The notes beneath the pieces were generated by a model. It had not been told where the DNA came from. It saw nothing but the letters and a program-made list of their open reading frames with translations, and searched no databases. 39,732 bases of DNA from Escherichia phage HK97. Positions 6,733 to 11,704 of this stretch are shown piece after piece (position 1 is the stretch's first letter; every line of letters begins with the position of its first letter). The position numbers and the translations under genes were made by a program. The DNA lies in sequence record NC_002167.1; one strand, 5' to 3'.

Positions 6733-7437
6733 ATGTCTGCACTTTATGAAAAATCGCAGCTGACGAAGATCCTTATTTCCTCCCTGCCGTCCACCAAAGA
6801 AACGATGGATTCCGCCACCTTTCTCGATCTGAGTTGCACCATCAAAGAAATTCAGTTCACTGGTGGCCAGAAGCAGGATATCGACGTAACAACACTTTGC
6901 TCTACCGAGCAGGAGAACATCAACGGCCTGCCTTCTCCGTCAGAAATCTCTCTGTCCGGCAACTTCTACAATAATCCAGCGCAGGACGCCTTGCGTGATG
7001 CGTATGACAACGACACCACTTACGGCTTCCAGATCATCTTCCCGTCAGGTAATGGTTTTAAGTTCCTGGCCGAAGTTCGCCAGCATACCTGGTCATCTGG
7101 TACCAATGGTGTTGTGGCAGCTACATTCTCACTGCGCCTTAAAGGCAAGCCTGTCCCGATTGACTCTGTACTTAAACTGACCACTGATCTTCCTTCCTCA
7201 CTGTCTGTAGCGGTGGGGGCTGCGATCAGCATGGCTGTAGTAGCTGCCGGTGGTAAGCCTCCGTATGCCTACACCTGGAAGAAGGCAGGTAGCACCGTCA
7301 GCGGGCAGACATCCGATACCTTTAATAAAGCCACCGCAGTTTCAGGTGATGCAGGTGATTACACCTGTGTGGTTACGGATTCTTCTTCTCCGGTCAAAAC
7401 GGTTACCTCAGCTGCCTGCACCCTTACTATCAGTTAA
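6733..7437 (+). CDS. major tail protein with C-terminal Ig-like domain
   Basis: 234-aa ORF with SD aggaga; C-terminal about 80 aa resemble a bacterial Ig-like surface domain (…GDAGDYTCVVTD…); position before G/T chaperones. Confidence 0.7.
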   Translation: MSALYEKSQLTKILISSLPSTKETMDSATFLDLSCTIKEIQFTGGQKQDIDVTTLCSTEQENINGLPSPSEISLSGNFYNNPAQDALRDAYDNDTTYGFQIIFPSGNGFKFLAEVRQHTWSSGTNGVVAATFSLRLKGKPVPIDSVLKLTTDLPSSLSVAVGAAISMAVVAAGGKPPYAYTWKKAGSTVSGQTSDTFNKATAVSGDAGDYTCVVTDSSSPVKTVTSAACTLTIS

Positions 7438-7471
7438 TGGAGATGCCGGGTTGTCCCGGCATGGATAAGCG

Positions 7472-7858
7472 ATGTCGCAAACTTTAAAACAATTAGCCAT
7501 GGCGAAAATGGCTGGCTTTCGCCATAAGACGGTCGTTGTCCCTGAGTGGGAAGGTGTCAAAGTGGTTCTCCGTGAGCCGTCAGGTGAAGCCTGGCTGCGC
7601 TGGCAGGAGGTGGTGAAAGGGGGGGGCGACGATGAAAATGTGTCGGTATCGGAAAAGGCGCACCGTAATCTTTGCGCTGACGTGGTGCTCTTCATTGACG
7701 TTCTGTGTGACACCGATAAGCAACCGGTATTCAGCGTAGACGAAGAAGAGCAGGTGCGTGAAATTTACGGGCCCGTGCACTCACGTCTGCTCAAACAGGC
7801 GCTTGACCTGATCAACAATGCGGACGAAGCGCGGGAAAAGTCTCAACCCCCGGCGTAA
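7472..7858 (+). CDS. tail assembly chaperone (gpG-like)
   Basis: 128-aa acidic ORF between major tail and tape measure; followed by an overlapping ORF in the -1 frame. Confidence 0.65.
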   Translation: MSQTLKQLAMAKMAGFRHKTVVVPEWEGVKVVLREPSGEAWLRWQEVVKGGGDDENVSVSEKAHRNLCADVVLFIDVLCDTDKQPVFSVDEEEQVREIYGPVHSRLLKQALDLINNADEAREKSQPPA

Positions 7859-8145
7859 AGTTTCTGATGTCGCTTGCGCTCCGGATGGGGCGCACGCTCT
7901 CAGAGCTTCGGCAGAATATGACGGCAAGCGAGCTTCTGATGTGGATTGAGTACGACAGGCAAAGCCCGGTTGGCGATATTCGCGGTGATATCCATGCAGC
8001 GCAGATTGTCTCTGCCATCTACGGCTCGCAGGGGGCAAAAGTACCGCTGGACGATGCGATCCTGCGCTGGGGTGGTGATGAGCAATCAGAACCGAAGGAC
8101 CCGTTTGCAGGGCTTGAGGCGGCACTTACAGCTGCGACACAATAA
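7807..8145 (+). CDS. tail assembly chaperone -1 frame extension (gpT-like segment)
   Basis: -1 frame relative to G is open from 7807 to 8145 and overlaps the G 3' end; GGGAAAAG run at 7833-7840 resembles the lambda G/T slippery site. Confidence 0.45.
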   Translation, partial: PDQQCGRSAGKVSTPGVKFLMSLALRMGRTLSELRQNMTASELLMWIEYDRQSPVGDIRGDIHAAQIVSAIYGSQGAKVPLDDAILRWGGDEQSEPKDPFAGLEAALTAATQ

Positions 8146-8202
8146 TTGCTTCACATGCCTTCAATGTAGCGATACGCTCTTTCCTTAAGTAAAGGAGGCG
8201 TT

Positions 8203-8391
8203 ATGGAACCACTGGTAGTAGTGTTTGGAATATTCGGCTGGATGATAAATCTAATTGTGATTTTTTATTTATTACGGTTTAGCACAAGGGCAAATGAACA
8301 AGTTGAAGCCCTTAAAGAGATAAATAAAAAGCAAGATGCGCAAATAGATTTATTAATACAAGTCGCTCACCAAAGAAAAGACAGTTTATAA
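8203..8391 (+). CDS. moron-encoded small membrane protein (candidate superinfection exclusion, HK97 gp15-like)
   Basis: 62-aa ORF, strong SD aaggagg, one N-terminal TM helix; AT-rich compared with flanking tail genes; own terminator downstream. Confidence 0.6.
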   Translation: MEPLVVVFGIFGWMINLIVIFYLLRFSTRANEQVEALKEINKKQDAQIDLLIQVAHQRKDSL

Positions 8392-8397
8392 CTCACG

Positions 8398-8422
8398 ACC
8401 CGCTATCAAGCGGGTTTTTTTT
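8398..8422 (+). terminator. intrinsic terminator after moron
   Basis: acccgc-tatcaa-gcgggt followed by T8. Confidence 0.6.
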
Positions 8423-8434
8423 ATGGGTGAAAAT

Positions 8435-11400
8435 ATGGCTACGTTGCGCGAACTGATCATCAAAATATCTGCAAACTCTCAGTCATTCCAGTCTGAAATT
8501 TCTCGTGCTTCAAGAATGGGGAATGACTATTACCGGGTAATGCAGACTGGAGGACGCCAATCGGCCGCAGCTTCGCGTGAAACTCAGCGTGCCTTGGCTG
8601 AGGTAACTAGTCAAATAAACACCGCGAAGGCCTCAGCACTGGGAATGGCTGGTGCATTTGCTGGAGCATTTGCGACTGGTCATCTTATATCGCTGGCCGA
8701 TGAATGGAGCTCTGTTAATGCCAGGCTAAAGCAGGCTTCCCAGTCGTCAGATGATTTCACGGAGTCCCAGCGGGCGCTGATGGATATTAGCCAGCGAACC
8801 GGAACCGCCTTCTCTGATAATGCGAGTCTTTTTGCGCGTTCAGCCGCTTCTATGCGTGAATATGGCTACAGTTCAGAAGAGGTTCTGAAGGTAACCGAGG
8901 CTATATCAACAGGGCTTAAGCTGTCAGGCGCAAGCGCGTCTGAAGCGAGTTCGGTAATCACGCAGTTCAGCCAGGCTCTGGCGCAGGGTGTTCTTCGAGG
9001 CGAGGAATTTAACTCCGTCAACGAAAACGGTGATCGAGTTATCCGTGCTCTTGCCGCAGGGATGGGTGTAGCTCGTAAAGATCTGAAGGCAATGGCCGAT
9101 CAGGGGATGCTAACCGCAGATAAAGTTGTCCCGGCCCTGATAAGTCAACTTGGCACTATGCGTGGTGAATTTGAGGCAATGCCGCAGACCGTTTCTGCTG
9201 CCACGACGAAAGTCGAAAATGCTTTCATGGCATGGGTAGGTGGCGCTAATGAAGCCACTGGTGCGACAAGTACTCTTGTTGCCGTATTGAATACGGTTTC
9301 TGACAATATAGACACTGTGGCTACGGCTGCCGGAGCTTTGGCTGCGATAGGTGGAGCTCGCTATCTTGGAGGGATGTTTGGCGATCTTGGGAACCAGACG
9401 GCGCAATTAATAGATGCCAGAAAGAACGAAATTGCGCTCGCAGCTGCAAGGGCTGAATCTGCTACCCAATCACAACGCAAGGCCGCCGCCGATGCTATTG
9501 CTGCTGAGCGAGCTTACCAGCTTGCTCAGTCAGAACTTGTGCTGGCAAAGAATACTAATGCTGAGGCTACTGCCACTCAAAATGCCATATCCAAGCGCCG
9601 GGCAATGATTACAGCAAATGCGGCACTGGTACAGTCAAACAGAGCCGTTGCAGCCTCTCAGCAGGCACTTAACTCTGCAACATCAGTGCTGGGGCTTGTA
9701 AAAACTGGCGCTACGGGTCTTTTGTCGTTAGTTGGTGGTTTGCCAGGAATTTTAATGTTGGGTGCTGGGGCGTGGTACACGATGTATCAACGCCAAGAAC
9801 AAGCCAGGGAATCTGCAATCCAATATGCGGACACAATCGAGCAGGTACGAGATAATCTGAAATCAATGTCTCAGACGCAGATATCCGCCAACCTTGGACA
9901 GGCGAATATTTCACTGGATGCTCAGAATAGTGCGATTGAACAGCAGAAGCAGAAAGTTGCTGAATTATCCAATCAACTTTATAACGCAAAATTAGCAGCC
10001 AATTCTGCTTCAGAGGGGACATGGCTGTATAACGATGCGGTTGAGAAAGCCGCAGACTTTGCTTCAGAACTTGCGGTTGAAGAAGGCCGACTTGAGCAAA
10101 TGCTCAATAAAAGAAAGCAAACACAACAGTTAATAAACGACATAACTGATCAGGCTATAAATAAAACAGTAGAAATGGCTGGCGCCGTAAGTTCTCTTAC
10201 AGAGATGTATGACCGGCTGAACAAGGTTTCCAGACAGTCTACAGCAGTGTCCCCACCAAAATATGCAGGACCTGTACTTCCTGCGCTTGATAATAAGCAA
10301 CAACAAGCTATTGAGAAAGCACAGCGACAGCTTGAGCTATCTGGCCTTCAGGGTTTGGATAAGGCTCGAAAGCAGGCAGAATTCGATGCATCTGATCTGA
10401 ACCTTCCAGCTGGTTGGCGTGAGAAATATGTCAGCATGGAAGTTGAGTCTGCTAGGCAATTACAAGCAATTCGTAACTCAAGCCGCCATAAGGGTGGAAA
10501 ATCCGAGGCGGAAAAAACAGCTGATACCTATGACAAGCTGATCAAGCAGCAAAAAGAGCAGATCGCTCTGCAAGGGCAGAATACCGAGCTGGCAAAGGTT
10601 AAATATCAGGTAAGCCAGGGTGAGCTTTCTACGCTAAGTCAGGCCCAGAAAGCCGAAGTTATGCGTAATGCTGCTCTCATCGATCAGGTTAAATTGCGTG
10701 GACAACTGCGAAATTACGAAGCCAACCTTGCTGACAGTAACGCCAGCGCCCGCGCAGCCAATGAAGCGCAACTGCTGGGCTACGGGCAGGGAACCAGGTT
10801 CCGTGAAAGACTTCAGGAGCAGTTCAATCTGCGTAAGGAGTTTGAGCAGAAGAATACCGATCTTCTCCGCCAGCGTCAGGCTGGTGAAATCGACGAGACG
10901 TTCTATCAGCAGGGGCTGGCACTTAATAAGCGCTACCTCGAAGAGCGCCTGCGCGACCAGGAGGGATATTACGCAGCTTCTGATGCGCAGCGTGACGACT
11001 GGATGACGGGACTGTCTGAGGGTTATGCGAACTGGGTGGATGAAGCGACAGATTACTCCTCCATGGCAGCTGACGGGATGAAGCAGGCAATGGGTGGGGC
11101 GGTAACTTCGATTACTGACATGCTCAATGGTAACGTCGACAGCTGGAAGGACTGGGGTGTCAGCGTACTGAAGATCATCCAGAATGTTCTGGTCAATATG
11201 GCTGTTGCTAACGGCGTCAGTTCAATTGGTTCTCTCTTCAGCTTTGGCGCATCTTCCGCCGCTGCCGCCAGTAGCGGTACTGCAATTCAGAACGCTGGCG
11301 CGAACTTCACCTTTAACGCGAAGGGTAATGTTTACGACTCTCCGTCCCTGAGCGCATACAGCAATGGCGTGTTTCAGACCCCTCAGCTTTTTGCTTTTGC

Positions 11401-11704
11401 CAAAGGAGCGGGTGTGTTTGCAGAGGCTGGACCTGAAGCCATTATGCCGCTTACCCGTGCTGCTGATGGTTCGCTTGGCGTTCGGGCTGTTGGCACTGGT
11501 GGTGGTGGTCAGGCTGTATCTTCGGCTCCACAGGTTTACTCACCAATCGATGGCAACGGAAATACTTCCACGCAGACTTCACCCGGCCTTGAGCAATTTG
11601 GTGCTGATGTCGGTAAATATATTGATCAGCGATATAAGCAGAACATCATGCGAGATATTCGCCCTGGCGGTGACATCTGGAACGCAATGAAAGGAACCCG
11701 ATAA
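8435..11704 (+). CDS. tail tape measure protein
   Basis: ORF of over 1000 aa, Ala/Gln-rich coiled-coil composition, between chaperones and M/L/K; start taken as ATG 8435 (MATLREL; in-frame ATG also at 8423). Confidence 0.85.
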   Translation: MATLRELIIKISANSQSFQSEISRASRMGNDYYRVMQTGGRQSAAASRETQRALAEVTSQINTAKASALGMAGAFAGAFATGHLISLADEWSSVNARLKQASQSSDDFTESQRALMDISQRTGTAFSDNASLFARSAASMREYGYSSEEVLKVTEAISTGLKLSGASASEASSVITQFSQALAQGVLRGEEFNSVNENGDRVIRALAAGMGVARKDLKAMADQGMLTADKVVPALISQLGTMRGEFEAMPQTVSAATTKVENAFMAWVGGANEATGATSTLVAVLNTVSDNIDTVATAAGALAAIGGARYLGGMFGDLGNQTAQLIDARKNEIALAAARAESATQSQRKAAADAIAAERAYQLAQSELVLAKNTNAEATATQNAISKRRAMITANAALVQSNRAVAASQQALNSATSVLGLVKTGATGLLSLVGGLPGILMLGAGAWYTMYQRQEQARESAIQYADTIEQVRDNLKSMSQTQISANLGQANISLDAQNSAIEQQKQKVAELSNQLYNAKLAANSASEGTWLYNDAVEKAADFASELAVEEGRLEQMLNKRKQTQQLINDITDQAINKTVEMAGAVSSLTEMYDRLNKVSRQSTAVSPPKYAGPVLPALDNKQQQAIEKAQRQLELSGLQGLDKARKQAEFDASDLNLPAGWREKYVSMEVESARQLQAIRNSSRHKGGKSEAEKTADTYDKLIKQQKEQIALQGQNTELAKVKYQVSQGELSTLSQAQKAEVMRNAALIDQVKLRGQLRNYEANLADSNASARAANEAQLLGYGQGTRFRERLQEQFNLRKEFEQKNTDLLRQRQAGEIDETFYQQGLALNKRYLEERLRDQEGYYAASDAQRDDWMTGLSEGYANWVDEATDYSSMAADGMKQAMGGAVTSITDMLNGNVDSWKDWGVSVLKIIQNVLVNMAVANGVSSIGSLFSFGASSAAAASSGTAIQNAGANFTFNAKGNVYDSPSLSAYSNGVFQTPQLFAFAKGAGVFAEAGPEAIMPLTRAADGSLGVRAVGTGGGGQAVSSAPQVYSPIDGNGNTSTQTSPGLEQFGADVGKYIDQRYKQNIMRDIRPGGDIWNAMKGTR

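What the first reader, a model, noticed from the sequence alone, without database searches (positions are those of the whole stretch)
7807..7858. Candidate programmed -1 frameshift joining the G-like and T-like chaperone ORFs
The -1 frame relative to the G-like ORF is open from 7807 through 8145 and overlaps the last 17 codons of G. A GGGAAAAG run (7833-7840) resembles the lambda G/T slippery sequence, although in the G frame it reads cgG GAA AAG and so is not a canonical X-XXY-YYZ heptamer.
Basis: partly seen in the sequence, partly recalled or inferred. Interest (0 to 1): 0.4.

Follow-up and report, generated by a model that had tools for sequence, protein, structure and literature searches.

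The report
Known HK97 tail-chaperone frameshift site
This is the programmed -1 ribosomal frameshift that joins the two tail-assembly chaperone reading frames of an HK97-type phage; the fusion is already annotated in GenBank, and its only unusual point is a weak, non-canonical slip sequence (G_GAA_AAG).

Summary
The G-like ORF (7472-7858) is overlapped by a -1 frame that is open from 7807 to 8145 and encodes a lambda gpT-type domain. The shift site is the heptamer G_GAA_AAG (7834-7840); after the shift the next codon is GTC (7840-7842). The predicted 224-aa fusion (...DEAREK|VSTPGVKFLMS...) is identical to GenBank NP_037707.1/AAF31104.1 (phage HK97) and to HK446_011, so the fusion is already annotated.

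I compared 90 distinct junction sequences from relatives.
- T lies in the -1 frame of G in 160 of 162 loci where both marker motifs were found.
- An in-frame N_NNA_AAG sits at the homologous position in all 90. The forms are A_AAA_AAG, G_GGA_AAG, G_GAA_AAG, N_GCA_AAG and G_GTA_AAG.
- The phase of codon-position variability switches from the G frame to the -1 frame exactly at this site.
- Residues encoded upstream of ATG 7867 (Val, Pro, Phe) are nearly invariant.
- ATG 7867 is an internal Met with the weakest Shine-Dalgarno pairing of ten starts tested, and some relatives lack it.

The one notable point is that G_GAA_AAG is the sequence a reconstituted-translation study chose as its "unfavourable" control. 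I found no stimulatory element, so efficiency is probably low. Verdict: real, ordinary, already known.

The parts
7472..7858 (+). G-like tail assembly chaperone gene (HK97 gp13 type), 128 aa, the 0-frame product
   Evidence: ORF list. PF06222 Phage_TAC_1 1.2e-60. PDB 2ob9 'Tail assembly chaperone' 1.6e-79 over residues 1-127. Annotated as tail assembly chaperone in HK446, mEpX1 and HK75.
7834..7840 (+). Shift heptamer G_GAA_AAG. The 0-frame codons are GAA (7835-7837, Glu122) and AAG (7838-7840, Lys123). After the -1 slip the tRNAs sit on GGA (7834-7836) and AAA (7837-7839).
   Evidence: Direct reading. It is the homologous position of G_GGA_AAG, A_AAA_AAG and N_GCA_AAG in relatives. The fusion built from this junction is an exact match to NP_037707.1. 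The heptamer is invariant in 24 distinct HK97-type junctions.
7840..8145 (+). The -1-frame segment translated after the shift (Val124 to Gln224 of the fusion, stop TAA 8143-8145). It carries the gpT-type domain.
   Evidence: Translation. PF06223 Phage_tail_T 2e-20 starts 28 residues after the junction, against 29 in lambda. phrog_14766 covers positions 124-224 of a 224-position fusion profile.
7807..7855 (+). The overlap in which the -1 frame is open while G is still being decoded. Any shift must occur here.
   Evidence: TGA at 7804-7806 closes the -1 frame upstream, and the G stop is at 7856-7858.
7867..7869 (+). ATG that gene callers use as the T start. In the fusion it is the internal Met133 of the conserved F-L-M motif.
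   Evidence: Anti-SD pairing is -1.7 kcal/mol, the weakest of 10 starts tested. It is replaced by Leu in 4 of 47 distinct junction peptides. The -1-frame residues upstream of it (Val +1, Pro +4, Phe +8) are nearly invariant.
7846..7852 (+). A_CCC_CCG, the only other slip-prone run in the overlap. Considered and rejected as the shift site.
   Evidence: It is broken to CCC CTG in L111 and L161 while G_GAA_AAG stays intact. It is absent from relatives whose G stops directly after AAG. Fusions built from this junction are not in the protein collection.
7875..7894 (+). GC-rich hairpin (UGCGCUCC-GGAU-GGGGCGCA) inside the T segment, 34 nt 3' of the heptamer. Probably not a stimulator; its role is uncertain.
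   Evidence: Predicted in the MFE and centroid folds, but the region's z-scores are -0.03 and +0.48. At least 6 of 8 pairs are present in 52 of 80 distinct relatives, the stem is lost in the Gly-Lys clade, and no compensatory changes were seen.
6733..7437 (+). Context: the major tail (tube) protein gene with a C-terminal Ig-like domain, immediately upstream of G
   Evidence: PF16460, PF08813 and Ig_3. Annotated as major tail subunit.
8423..11704 (+). Context: the tape measure protein gene downstream of T, separated from it by the gp15 moron
   Evidence: PF20155 2.7e-58, PF06120 and PF09718.

Best explanation
A small fraction of ribosomes translating the G-like chaperone gene slip back one nucleotide at G_GAA_AAG (7834-7840). 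They continue from GTC (7840-7842) in the -1 frame to the stop at 8143-8145. The result is a 224-aa G-T fusion (HK97 gp14) alongside the abundant 128-aa G protein (gp13).

The driving event is re-pairing of the single E. coli tRNA-Lys from AAG to AAA. The P-site tRNA-Glu can follow only imperfectly: on GGA it has a second-position G.U mismatch. The site therefore behaves like an NNA_AAG 'hexanucleotide' or single-tRNA slip site rather than a true tandem-slip heptamer, and efficiency is probably below lambda's ~4%.

By analogy with lambda gpG/gpGT, the G part binds the tape measure protein and the T part recruits the tail tube protein, which fixes the chaperone ratio for tail assembly.

Shown here: the frames, the junction, its homology across relatives, coding in the -1 frame upstream of the ATG, and identity to the annotated HK97 fusion. 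Inferred: the tRNA mechanics, the efficiency and the assembly role.
For: (1) The frames and domains fit: PF06222 in the 0 frame and PF06223 in the -1 frame, between the tube and tape-measure genes.

(2) The fusion with junction ...AREK|VSTPG... is an exact match to NP_037707.1/AAF31104.1 (HK97), AFH20639.1 (HK446_011, a joined CDS) and AFH20577.1. Seven alternative junctions are absent from the collection. The mEpX1 record notes 'translated due to a -1 frameshift'.

(3) T is in the -1 frame of G in 160 of 162 related loci where both marker motifs were found. All 90 distinct junctions carry an in-frame N_NNA_AAG at the same place.

(4) Fusions predicted from 7 relatives at 51-64% identity align without gaps across the junction. 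V124, P127, F131 and L132, all encoded upstream of ATG 7867, are invariant.

(5) The entropy by codon position peaks at G-frame position 3 upstream of the site (1.65 against 0.90 and 1.02). It peaks at -1-frame position 3 in the 7 codons right after it (1.62 against 1.01 and 1.02). In the 43 sequences where that stretch is non-coding in the G frame, the figures are 1.53 against 0.65 and 0.98.

(6) Lambda has the same layout: GCG GGA AAG plus 5 codons to the stop, a K|V junction, and PF06223 starting 29 residues after it.

(7) An endosymbiont copy (L013) with one extra A in its A-run is an in-frame G-T fusion reading ...AKKKVTQPGMQFLM..., the same junction.

(8) NNA_AAG and G_GA-type sites are documented -1 sites (PMC5009743). 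A_AAG is the best single-tRNA tetramer in E. coli (PMC4066793). Two prophage genes similar to an HK97 tail-chaperone protein gave 6-7% frameshifting in reporters (PMC3711429).
Against: G_GAA_AAG was chosen as the 'unfavourable' control in a reconstituted E. coli system. There it gave mainly 0-frame product at every EF-G concentration (PMC6924986).

A_AAG without a stimulator is barely above background in vivo: 0.147% against 0.112% (PMC4066793).

I found none of the usual stimulators.
- No upstream SD-like element: best anti-SD pairing is -3.2 kcal/mol.
- No 0-frame stop directly after AAG, unlike 46 of 90 relatives.
- No structure at a 5-9 nt spacing: fold z-scores are -0.03 and +0.48.

No protein-level evidence for the HK97 fusion could be read here. 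Xu et al. 2004 is not held.
Confidence: 0.9

Rival explanations
1. T is made as a free 92-aa protein from ATG 7867. This would happen either by independent initiation or by termination-reinitiation after the G stop 8 nt upstream, with no frameshift.
For: An ATG lies 8 nt after the G stop. RefSeq/PGAP and several phage records annotate G and T as two separate genes. G's own start also has weak SD pairing, -3.1 kcal/mol, so a weak SD alone does not exclude initiation.
Against: Anti-SD pairing before ATG 7867 is -1.7 kcal/mol, the weakest of 10 starts. The ATG is the Met of a conserved F-L-M motif and is Leu in 4 of 47 distinct junction peptides; for example L042 and L049 read ggc/ggt ttt ctg ctg. 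The 8 codons upstream of the motif show coding periodicity in the -1 frame and nearly invariant Val, Pro and Phe, even where they are non-coding in the G frame. The predicted fold pairs CUGA (7863-7866), directly upstream of the AUG, into a stem. In lambda, function depends on the G-T fusion (PMC5009743).
Confidence: 0.04
2. The -1 shift happens further downstream, on the C-run A_CCC_CCG (7846-7852). The fusion would then read ...EKSQPP|GVKFLMS....
For: Five consecutive C in the overlap allow tRNA-Pro to re-pair from CCG to CCC. C_CC.C_CC.G is on the list of heptamers with more than 0.1% shifting in PMC4066793. The resulting peptide would also contain P-G-V-K-F-L-M.
Against: The first base is A, not C, so this is not a full heptamer. 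Natural variants L111 and L161 read CCC CTG, and L158 reads CCC CCA, while G_GAA_AAG is invariant. Most relatives have no such run because G stops right after AAG. That fusion sequence is not in the protein collection. Val(+1) is conserved in 45 of 47 junction peptides, which shows translation in the -1 frame begins at the AAG site.
Confidence: 0.03
3. The frame change is made at the RNA level by transcriptional slippage on the A-run, not by the ribosome.
For: Relatives with A7-A9 runs (A_AAA_AAG) could in principle slip during transcription. A-run length differences do occur between related copies: A9 in L013 against A8 in L025, and A6 in L058 against A7 in L055.
Against: The window has only four A (7836-7839). 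Programmed transcriptional realignment is described for homopolymers of about 8 or more (PMC3711429). Relatives with GCA_AAG, GTA_AAG and GGA_AAG have only 3 A.
Confidence: 0.01

Closest known systems
Phage HK97 genes 13/14 (GenBank AAF31104.1 = NP_037707.1) and the HK446_011 joined CDS
   Same: The predicted 224-aa fusion is residue-for-residue identical. The DNA at 7440-8200 is 100% identical to HK446 and 99.7-99.9% identical to HK544, mEpX1, HK75, HK633, HK106 and mEp234.
   Different: Nothing differs; this is the same feature. HK97 itself is not in the searchable phage collection, so I could not read its own record's feature table.
Phage lambda gpG/gpGT -1 frameshift at G_GGA_AAG (Levin et al. 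1993; Xu et al. 2004, 2013, 2014)
   Same: The pair lies between the tube and tape-measure genes. The -1 ORF carries PF06223. The junction is K|V, five 0-frame codons follow AAG before the stop, and the T domain starts 28-29 residues after the junction. The A-site codon AAG and its tRNA-Lys are the same.
   Different: The P-site codon is GAA, not GGA, so tRNA-Glu meets a second-position mismatch after the slip. The G domain belongs to a different Pfam family (PF06222 against PF06894). Pairwise BLASTP between the two fusions is not significant. In lambda the 0 frame is kept ~96% of the time (PMC3296357); the efficiency here is unknown.
NNA_AAG 'hexanucleotide' -1 sites (B. subtilis cdd A_CGA_AAG, IS1222 G_CGA_AAG, IS3-based NNA_AAG series of Licznar et al. 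2003)
   Same: Only the A-site tRNA-Lys can re-pair cognately. The 5' codon varies: relatives here use GAA, GCA, GTA, GGA and AAA at the same position. The class is described in PMC5009743.
   Different: Appreciable levels in those studies needed a downstream pseudoknot or similar stimulator (PMC4066793), and none was found here. The review says 5' codons read by tRNAs with greater wobble propensity shift better. GAA is read by an mnm5s2U34 tRNA, which I recall as a restricted-wobble type. Licznar 2003 could not be read.
Related prophage chaperone pairs with A_AAA_AAG or G_GGA_AAG followed directly by the 0-frame stop
   Same: The G and T proteins are homologous at 45-90% identity, and the shift position and post-shift peptide V-x-x-P-G-x-x-F-L-M are the same.
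   Different: Those sites allow full tandem re-pairing, and in 46 of 90 distinct junctions a 0-frame stop directly follows the slip site. A stop adjacent to a slippery run is, as I recall, a known stimulator ('shifty stop'). The HK97 type has lost both features.
E. coli dnaX A_AAA_AAG frameshift
   Same: It is a -1 slip on an AAG codon read by tRNA-Lys.
   Different: dnaX uses an upstream SD-like element and a downstream stem-loop and reaches ~50% (PMC6924986; PMC3711429). Neither element is present here.

Membership tests
Conserved tail-assembly-chaperone G/GT frameshift of long-tailed phages (lambda type) | Two overlapping ORFs located between the major tail (tube) gene and the tape measure gene | tested here: met
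   The tube gene is 6733-7437, G is 7472-7858, the T frame is 7807-8145 and the tape measure gene is 8423-11704. The 189-nt gp15 moron is inserted between T and the tape measure gene.
Conserved tail-assembly-chaperone G/GT frameshift of long-tailed phages (lambda type) | The downstream ORF lies in the -1 frame and is conserved in that frame among relatives | tested here: met
   It is in the -1 frame in the window and in 160 of 162 related loci where both marker motifs were found.
Conserved tail-assembly-chaperone G/GT frameshift of long-tailed phages (lambda type) | A canonical X_XXY_YYZ slippery heptamer in the overlap, in phase with the upstream ORF | tested here: not met
   The site is G_GAA_AAG. 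YYZ = AAG is in phase, but X_XX = G_GA is not three identical bases. Such G_GA intermediates are recognised in the literature (PMC5009743).
Conserved tail-assembly-chaperone G/GT frameshift of long-tailed phages (lambda type) | The downstream part is translated only as an extension of the upstream protein: coding signal continues upstream of any ATG, and there is no own ribosome-binding site | tested here: met
   The phase of codon-position variability switches at the site. Val, Pro and Phe upstream of the ATG are nearly invariant, and the ATG is missing in some relatives. Anti-SD pairing is -1.7 kcal/mol.
Conserved tail-assembly-chaperone G/GT frameshift of long-tailed phages (lambda type) | A fusion protein is produced at a low, fixed ratio to the short protein and is required for tail assembly | not testable with these tools
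   This needs protein expression and genetics. The only indirect evidence is 6-7% frameshifting for two prophage genes similar to an HK97 tail-chaperone protein (PMC3711429), and those came from clusters selected for A-rich heptamers.
Pfam PF06223 Phage_tail_T (lambda gpT domain) | Score above the curated gathering threshold | tested here: met
   The score is 73.0-73.8 bits against a cutoff of 25.9. Lambda gpT scores 54.1 bits.
Pfam PF06222 Phage_TAC_1 (HK97 gp13-type chaperone) | Score above the curated gathering threshold and a match to the solved structure | tested here: met
   The score is 203.3 bits against a cutoff of 25. PDB 2ob9 matches at 1.6e-79.
NNA_AAG single-tRNA (hexanucleotide) -1 frameshift sites | An in-frame A_AAG in which only the AAG-reading tRNA-Lys can re-pair cognately in the -1 frame | tested here: met
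   The codons are GAA AAG. AAG->AAA is cognate, and GAA->GGA gives a second-position mismatch (stated in these words for this same sequence in PMC6924986).
NNA_AAG single-tRNA (hexanucleotide) -1 frameshift sites | A flanking stimulator (downstream structure or upstream SD) that raises the level above background | tested here: inconclusive
   No SD-like element lies 6-17 nt upstream. There is no significant local folding. The only stable hairpin is 34 nt downstream and is not conserved family-wide. Pseudoknots and nascent-peptide effects were not tested.
dnaX-type frameshift signal | A_AAA_AAG with an upstream SD-like element and a closely spaced downstream stem-loop | tested here: not met
   The heptamer differs and neither stimulator is present.

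The most novel reading that the evidence does not exclude
HK97-type phages depend on a heptamer (G_GAA_AAG) that purified E. coli translation components treat as essentially non-slippery. They also lack the adjacent 0-frame stop and the full re-pairing that their relatives have. Two readings follow. Either an unrecognised stimulator operates here, such as the nascent peptide, the C-run, the conserved hairpin at 7875-7894, or the use of two mnm5s2U34 tRNAs (Glu and Lys). Or this chaperone family assembles tails with a much lower GT:G ratio than lambda's ~1:30. The second reading would mean that single-tRNA A_AAG slippage is enough for a programmed, essential frameshift.
Probability: 0.2. Interest if true: 0.4.

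Novelty: already known. Interest (0 to 1): 0.15.

Why it matters
The feature is a textbook case. The G/GT frameshift sets the ratio of two tail-assembly chaperones and is conserved across long-tailed phages. This work adds little beyond confirmation.
- It shows the exact junction and shows that automatic annotation (PGAP, several phage records) still splits the gene in two.
- It documents that within one protein family the only invariant part of the signal is A_AAG, while the P-site codon drifts among AAA, GGA, GAA, GCA and GTA.
- It notes that the HK97 site is identical to a sequence used as a non-slippery control in vitro. That makes HK97 a convenient natural test of how little slippage a phage needs, and of whether tRNA s2U34 modification status affects it as it does lambda.

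Tried and rejected
(1) The alternative shift site A_CCC_CCG (7846-7852) was rejected. Natural variants break it, most relatives lack it, and fusions built from it are absent from the protein collection.

(2) A downstream stimulatory structure was not supported. Folds of 7841-7930 and 7790-7960 are no more stable than shuffled sequence, with z-scores of -0.03 and +0.48. The only solid hairpin (7875-7894) is 34 nt from the site, is lost in one clade and shows no compensatory changes. The Leu codon CTC (50 of 80) and the Gly codon GGG (59 of 80) that form it are curiously constant, but relatedness of the sequences could explain that.

(3) No upstream SD-like stimulator was found.

(4) Transcriptional slippage was rejected because there are only four A.

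(5) A pairwise BLASTP of the HK97 and lambda fusions gave nothing significant. The homology rests on the shared Pfam T-domain profile and the equivalent layout.

(6) Several literature look-ups failed. Xu et al. 2004, Licznar et al. 2003 and Xu et al. 2013/2014 are not held. I therefore could not check whether HK97 was among the phages confirmed experimentally, or how GAA_AAG ranked in the NNA_AAG series.

(7) HK97's own record is not in the phage collection. The tape-measure protein is not in the gene-position index, so the window's identity as HK97 rests on the exact fusion match and on the genome length as I remember it.

(8) An early version of the junction script picked AAG codons beyond the G stop, and a wrong spacing class was used. 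Both were corrected.

Full report
**What is in the sequence**

The stretch at 7800-7859 reads cgcttgacct gatcaacaat gcggacgaag cgcgggaaaa gtctcaaccc ccggcgtaaa. The G-like ORF runs from 7472 to 7858 (128 aa). In its frame the end reads GCG CGG GAA AAG TCT CAA CCC CCG GCG TAA. The frame one base back is closed by TGA at 7804-7806 and open from 7807 to the TAA at 8143-8145. There it reads ...GCG GGA AAA GTC TCA ACC CCC GGC GTA AAG TTT CTG ATG TCG....

The motif by itself is not special. GGAAAAG occurs 9 times in the window against 6.4 expected. In-frame NNA_AAG occurs 66 times in long ORFs. G itself holds a second in-frame G_GAA_AAG at 7651-7657, whose -1 frame stops after three codons. What matters is the context.

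**What the two frames encode and where they sit**

- The 0-frame product matches PF06222 Phage_TAC_1 (1.2e-60) and the solved structure 2ob9, 'Tail assembly chaperone' (1.6e-79).
- The -1 frame matches PF06223 Phage_tail_T, the lambda gpT family (2.6e-20).
- Upstream is a tail tube gene with an Ig-like domain (6733-7437). Downstream is a 1093-aa tape measure gene (8423-11704).
- This is the classical G/T position of lambdoid phages.

**It is already annotated**

The DNA at 7440-8200 is 100% identical to phage HK446 and 99.7-99.9% identical to HK544, mEpX1, HK75, HK633, HK106 and mEp234. HK446 carries a joined CDS (HK446_011) over G plus T, 'similar to Gp14 [HK97]'. The mEpX1 record says 'translated due to a -1 frameshift'.

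I built the fusion expected from a slip at G_GAA_AAG (...NNADEAREK|VSTPGVKFLMS..., 224 aa), together with seven alternative junctions. Only the first exists in the protein collection. It is AAF31104.1 = NP_037707.1 'tail protein [Escherichia phage HK97]', AFH20639.1 (HK446_011) and AFH20577.1. HK97's own record is not in the searchable phage collection. Other records and RefSeq's automatic annotation still list two separate genes.

**Where exactly the shift occurs**

In relatives at 45-90% protein identity the end of G reads as follows:
- GAG GGA AAG TAG (Salmonella phage SP-016)
- GCG GGA AAG CCG TAA (HK542)
- AGA/AAA/GAA AAA AAG TAG (BP-4795, phi467, Morganella phage)
- AAA GCA AAG TAA (Klebsiella phage)

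After the AAG, the -1 frame always continues G-TN as Val, followed by x-x-Pro-Gly-x-x-Phe-Leu-Met.

In the -1 frame the window reads GGA AAA GTC where SP-016 reads GGG AAA GTA. The HK97-type heptamer G_GAA_AAG (7834-7840) is therefore the lambda-type G_GGA_AAG with one G replaced by A. The eight-base 'GGGAAAAG run' is an accident of the preceding G.

The survey covered 73 bacterial-genome loci and 80 viral-contig loci.
- T is in the -1 frame of G in 160 of 162 loci where both marker motifs were found.
- All 90 distinct junctions have an in-frame N_NNA_AAG at the homologous place:

| Heptamer | Distinct junctions |
|---|---|
| A_AAA_AAG | 43 |
| G_GAA_AAG | 24 |
| G_GGA_AAG | 7 |
| A_GCA_AAG | 7 |
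| G_GCA_AAG | 5 |
| A_GAA_AAG | 2 |
| G_GTA_AAG | 1 |
| G_TTA_AAG (probably a script artefact, most likely from the in-frame fusion locus L013; not checked) | 1 |

- Only A_AAG is constant.
- The three apparent exceptions are damaged copies. L013 is in an endosymbiont, has A9 where its relative L025 has A8, and is an in-frame fusion reading ...AKKKVTQPGMQFLM.... L058 has A6 where a relative has A7. L012 has an indel inside G.

**Frameshift versus an independent start at ATG 7867**

- Predicted fusions from seven relatives at 51-64% identity align without a gap across the junction. V124, P127, F131 and L132, all encoded upstream of the ATG, are invariant.
- Over 76 distinct junctions, variability by codon position peaks at G-frame position 3 upstream of the site (1.65 against 0.90 and 1.02). 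It peaks at -1-frame position 3 in the seven codons right after it (1.62 against 1.01 and 1.02).
- The same holds in the 43 sequences where this stretch is not coding in the G frame at all (1.53 against 0.65 and 0.98). The stretch between the shift site and the ATG is therefore translated in the -1 frame.
- The Met is Leu in 4 of 47 distinct junction peptides, and L042 and L049 have no ATG there.
- Pairing of the anti-Shine-Dalgarno sequence ahead of ATG 7867 is -1.7 kcal/mol. That is the weakest of ten starts tested, whose range is -2.5 to -11.6.

**The other candidate sites**

The C-run A_CCC_CCG (7846-7852) is broken in natural variants (CCC CTG in L111 and L161) while the heptamer is untouched. 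Most relatives lack it. Four A are too few for transcriptional slippage; the literature describes runs of about eight or more (PMC3711429).

**How it most likely works**

*Shown here:* the layout is the same as in lambda. Lambda reads GCG GGA AAG followed by five codons and a stop. Its junction is K|V, and its PF06223 domain begins 29 residues after the junction, against 28 here.

*From the literature:*
- In lambda the shift gives gpG and gpGT at about 30:1. The G part binds the tape measure protein and the T part binds the tube protein (PMC5009743). The 0 frame is kept about 96% of the time (PMC3296357).
- A_AAG is the most shift-prone tetramer in E. coli because tRNA-Lys re-pairs cognately on AAA. 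Alone it is barely above background, and it reaches 5.6% with a strong pseudoknot (PMC4066793).
- NNA_AAG sites are known in B. subtilis cdd and IS1222. X_XX = G_GA occurs in several RNA viruses (PMC5009743).

*Inferred:* tRNA-Lys slips from AAG to AAA while tRNA-Glu follows onto GGA with a second-position G.U mismatch. Alternatively, the P-site tRNA slips first and tRNA-Lys then reads AAA. Both routes give the same protein.

**The one unusual point**

Peng et al. 2019 used exactly AUG GAA AAG as their 'unfavourable' sequence, for the reason just given. They saw mainly 0-frame product at every EF-G concentration, while G_GGA_AAG and A_AAA_AAG gave more than 70% -1 product at low EF-G (PMC6924986).

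The HK97 type also lacks a 0-frame stop directly after AAG, which 46 of 90 relatives have. I found no upstream SD-like element. I found no structure at a useful distance: z-scores are -0.03 and +0.48. The stable hairpin at 7875-7894 is 34 nt away, is lost in one clade and shows no compensatory changes.

The efficiency is thus probably below lambda's, unless a stimulator of a kind I could not test exists. Two prophage genes similar to an HK97 tail-chaperone protein gave 6-7% in reporters. They came from clusters selected for A-rich heptamers, and which heptamers the two carried was not stated in what I read (PMC3711429).

**Verdict**

The feature is already known: it is HK97 gp13/gp14, a member of the conserved tail-chaperone frameshift. 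It fails the strict X_XXY_YYZ criterion but meets every other feature that could be tested. It works as an A_AAG single-tRNA variant of the same mechanism. Interest is low. The residual open question is how such a weak site yields enough fusion protein.

Noticed in passing
window 8203-8391 (with terminator 8397-8416): A 62-aa ORF sits between T and the tape measure gene. It has a YebO-like domain (PF13974, 1.2e-08) and a GC content of 0.32-0.37 against about 0.55-0.58 in the flanks. It has the strongest SD pairing of the ten starts tested (-11.6 kcal/mol) and its own terminator. This is the HK97 gp15 moron, labelled 'Gp15 exclusion protein' in PV340543. Relatives have different inserts or none at this spot.
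   Followed up: partly
window 7875-7894: An 8-bp GC-rich hairpin lies in the codons for L-A-L-R-M-G-R-T. The Leu codon CTC (50 of 80 distinct sequences) and the Gly codon GGG (59 of 80) that form the stem are kept far more often than the neighbouring Leu codon choice would suggest. The stem is destroyed in the clade with Gly-Lys, and no compensatory changes were seen. In the predicted fold, an outer stem pairs CUGA (7863-7866), directly upstream of ATG 7867, with UCAG further downstream.
   Followed up: partly
L013 (Candidatus Symbiopectobacterium endolongispinus), near 961 in the locus; L058 (Serratia sp. L9), near 966: L013 has A9 where its relative L025 has A8. That puts G and T in one frame as a natural in-frame fusion, within a copy whose G N-terminus is also disrupted. 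L058 has A6 where L055 has A7, which puts T in the +1 frame. These are either homopolymer sequencing errors or decay of prophage genes.
   Followed up: partly
window 7619-7626: A run of eight G lies inside the G gene (AAA GGG GGG GGC, K-G-G-G) within a strongly SD-like stretch: caggaggtggtgaaagggggggg has anti-SD pairing down to -11.6 kcal/mol. The close relative SaltyDalty reads KWGA there instead of KGGG.
   Followed up: no
window 6733-7437: The major tail protein has a C-terminal Ig-like domain (Ig_3, Ig_2 and I-set hits at residues ~153-224). Relatives such as SaltyDalty and Salmonella phage SP-016 have a 444-nt tube gene without it, while BP-4795 and phi467 have long versions.
   Followed up: no
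window 7443-7462: The inverted repeat gccgggttgtcccggc lies between the tube gene and G. HK446 annotates it as a rho-independent terminator and mEpX1 as a stem-loop. My simple scan did not call it, because no T-run follows.
   Followed up: no
E. coli complete genomes (H80-H91): Only 13 of 5,426 complete E. coli genomes carry this G/T allele at 87% identity or more. In all 12 listed, PGAP annotates two separate genes ('phage tail assembly chaperone' plus 'phage tail assembly protein T' or 'DUF4035') with no frameshift.
   Followed up: no
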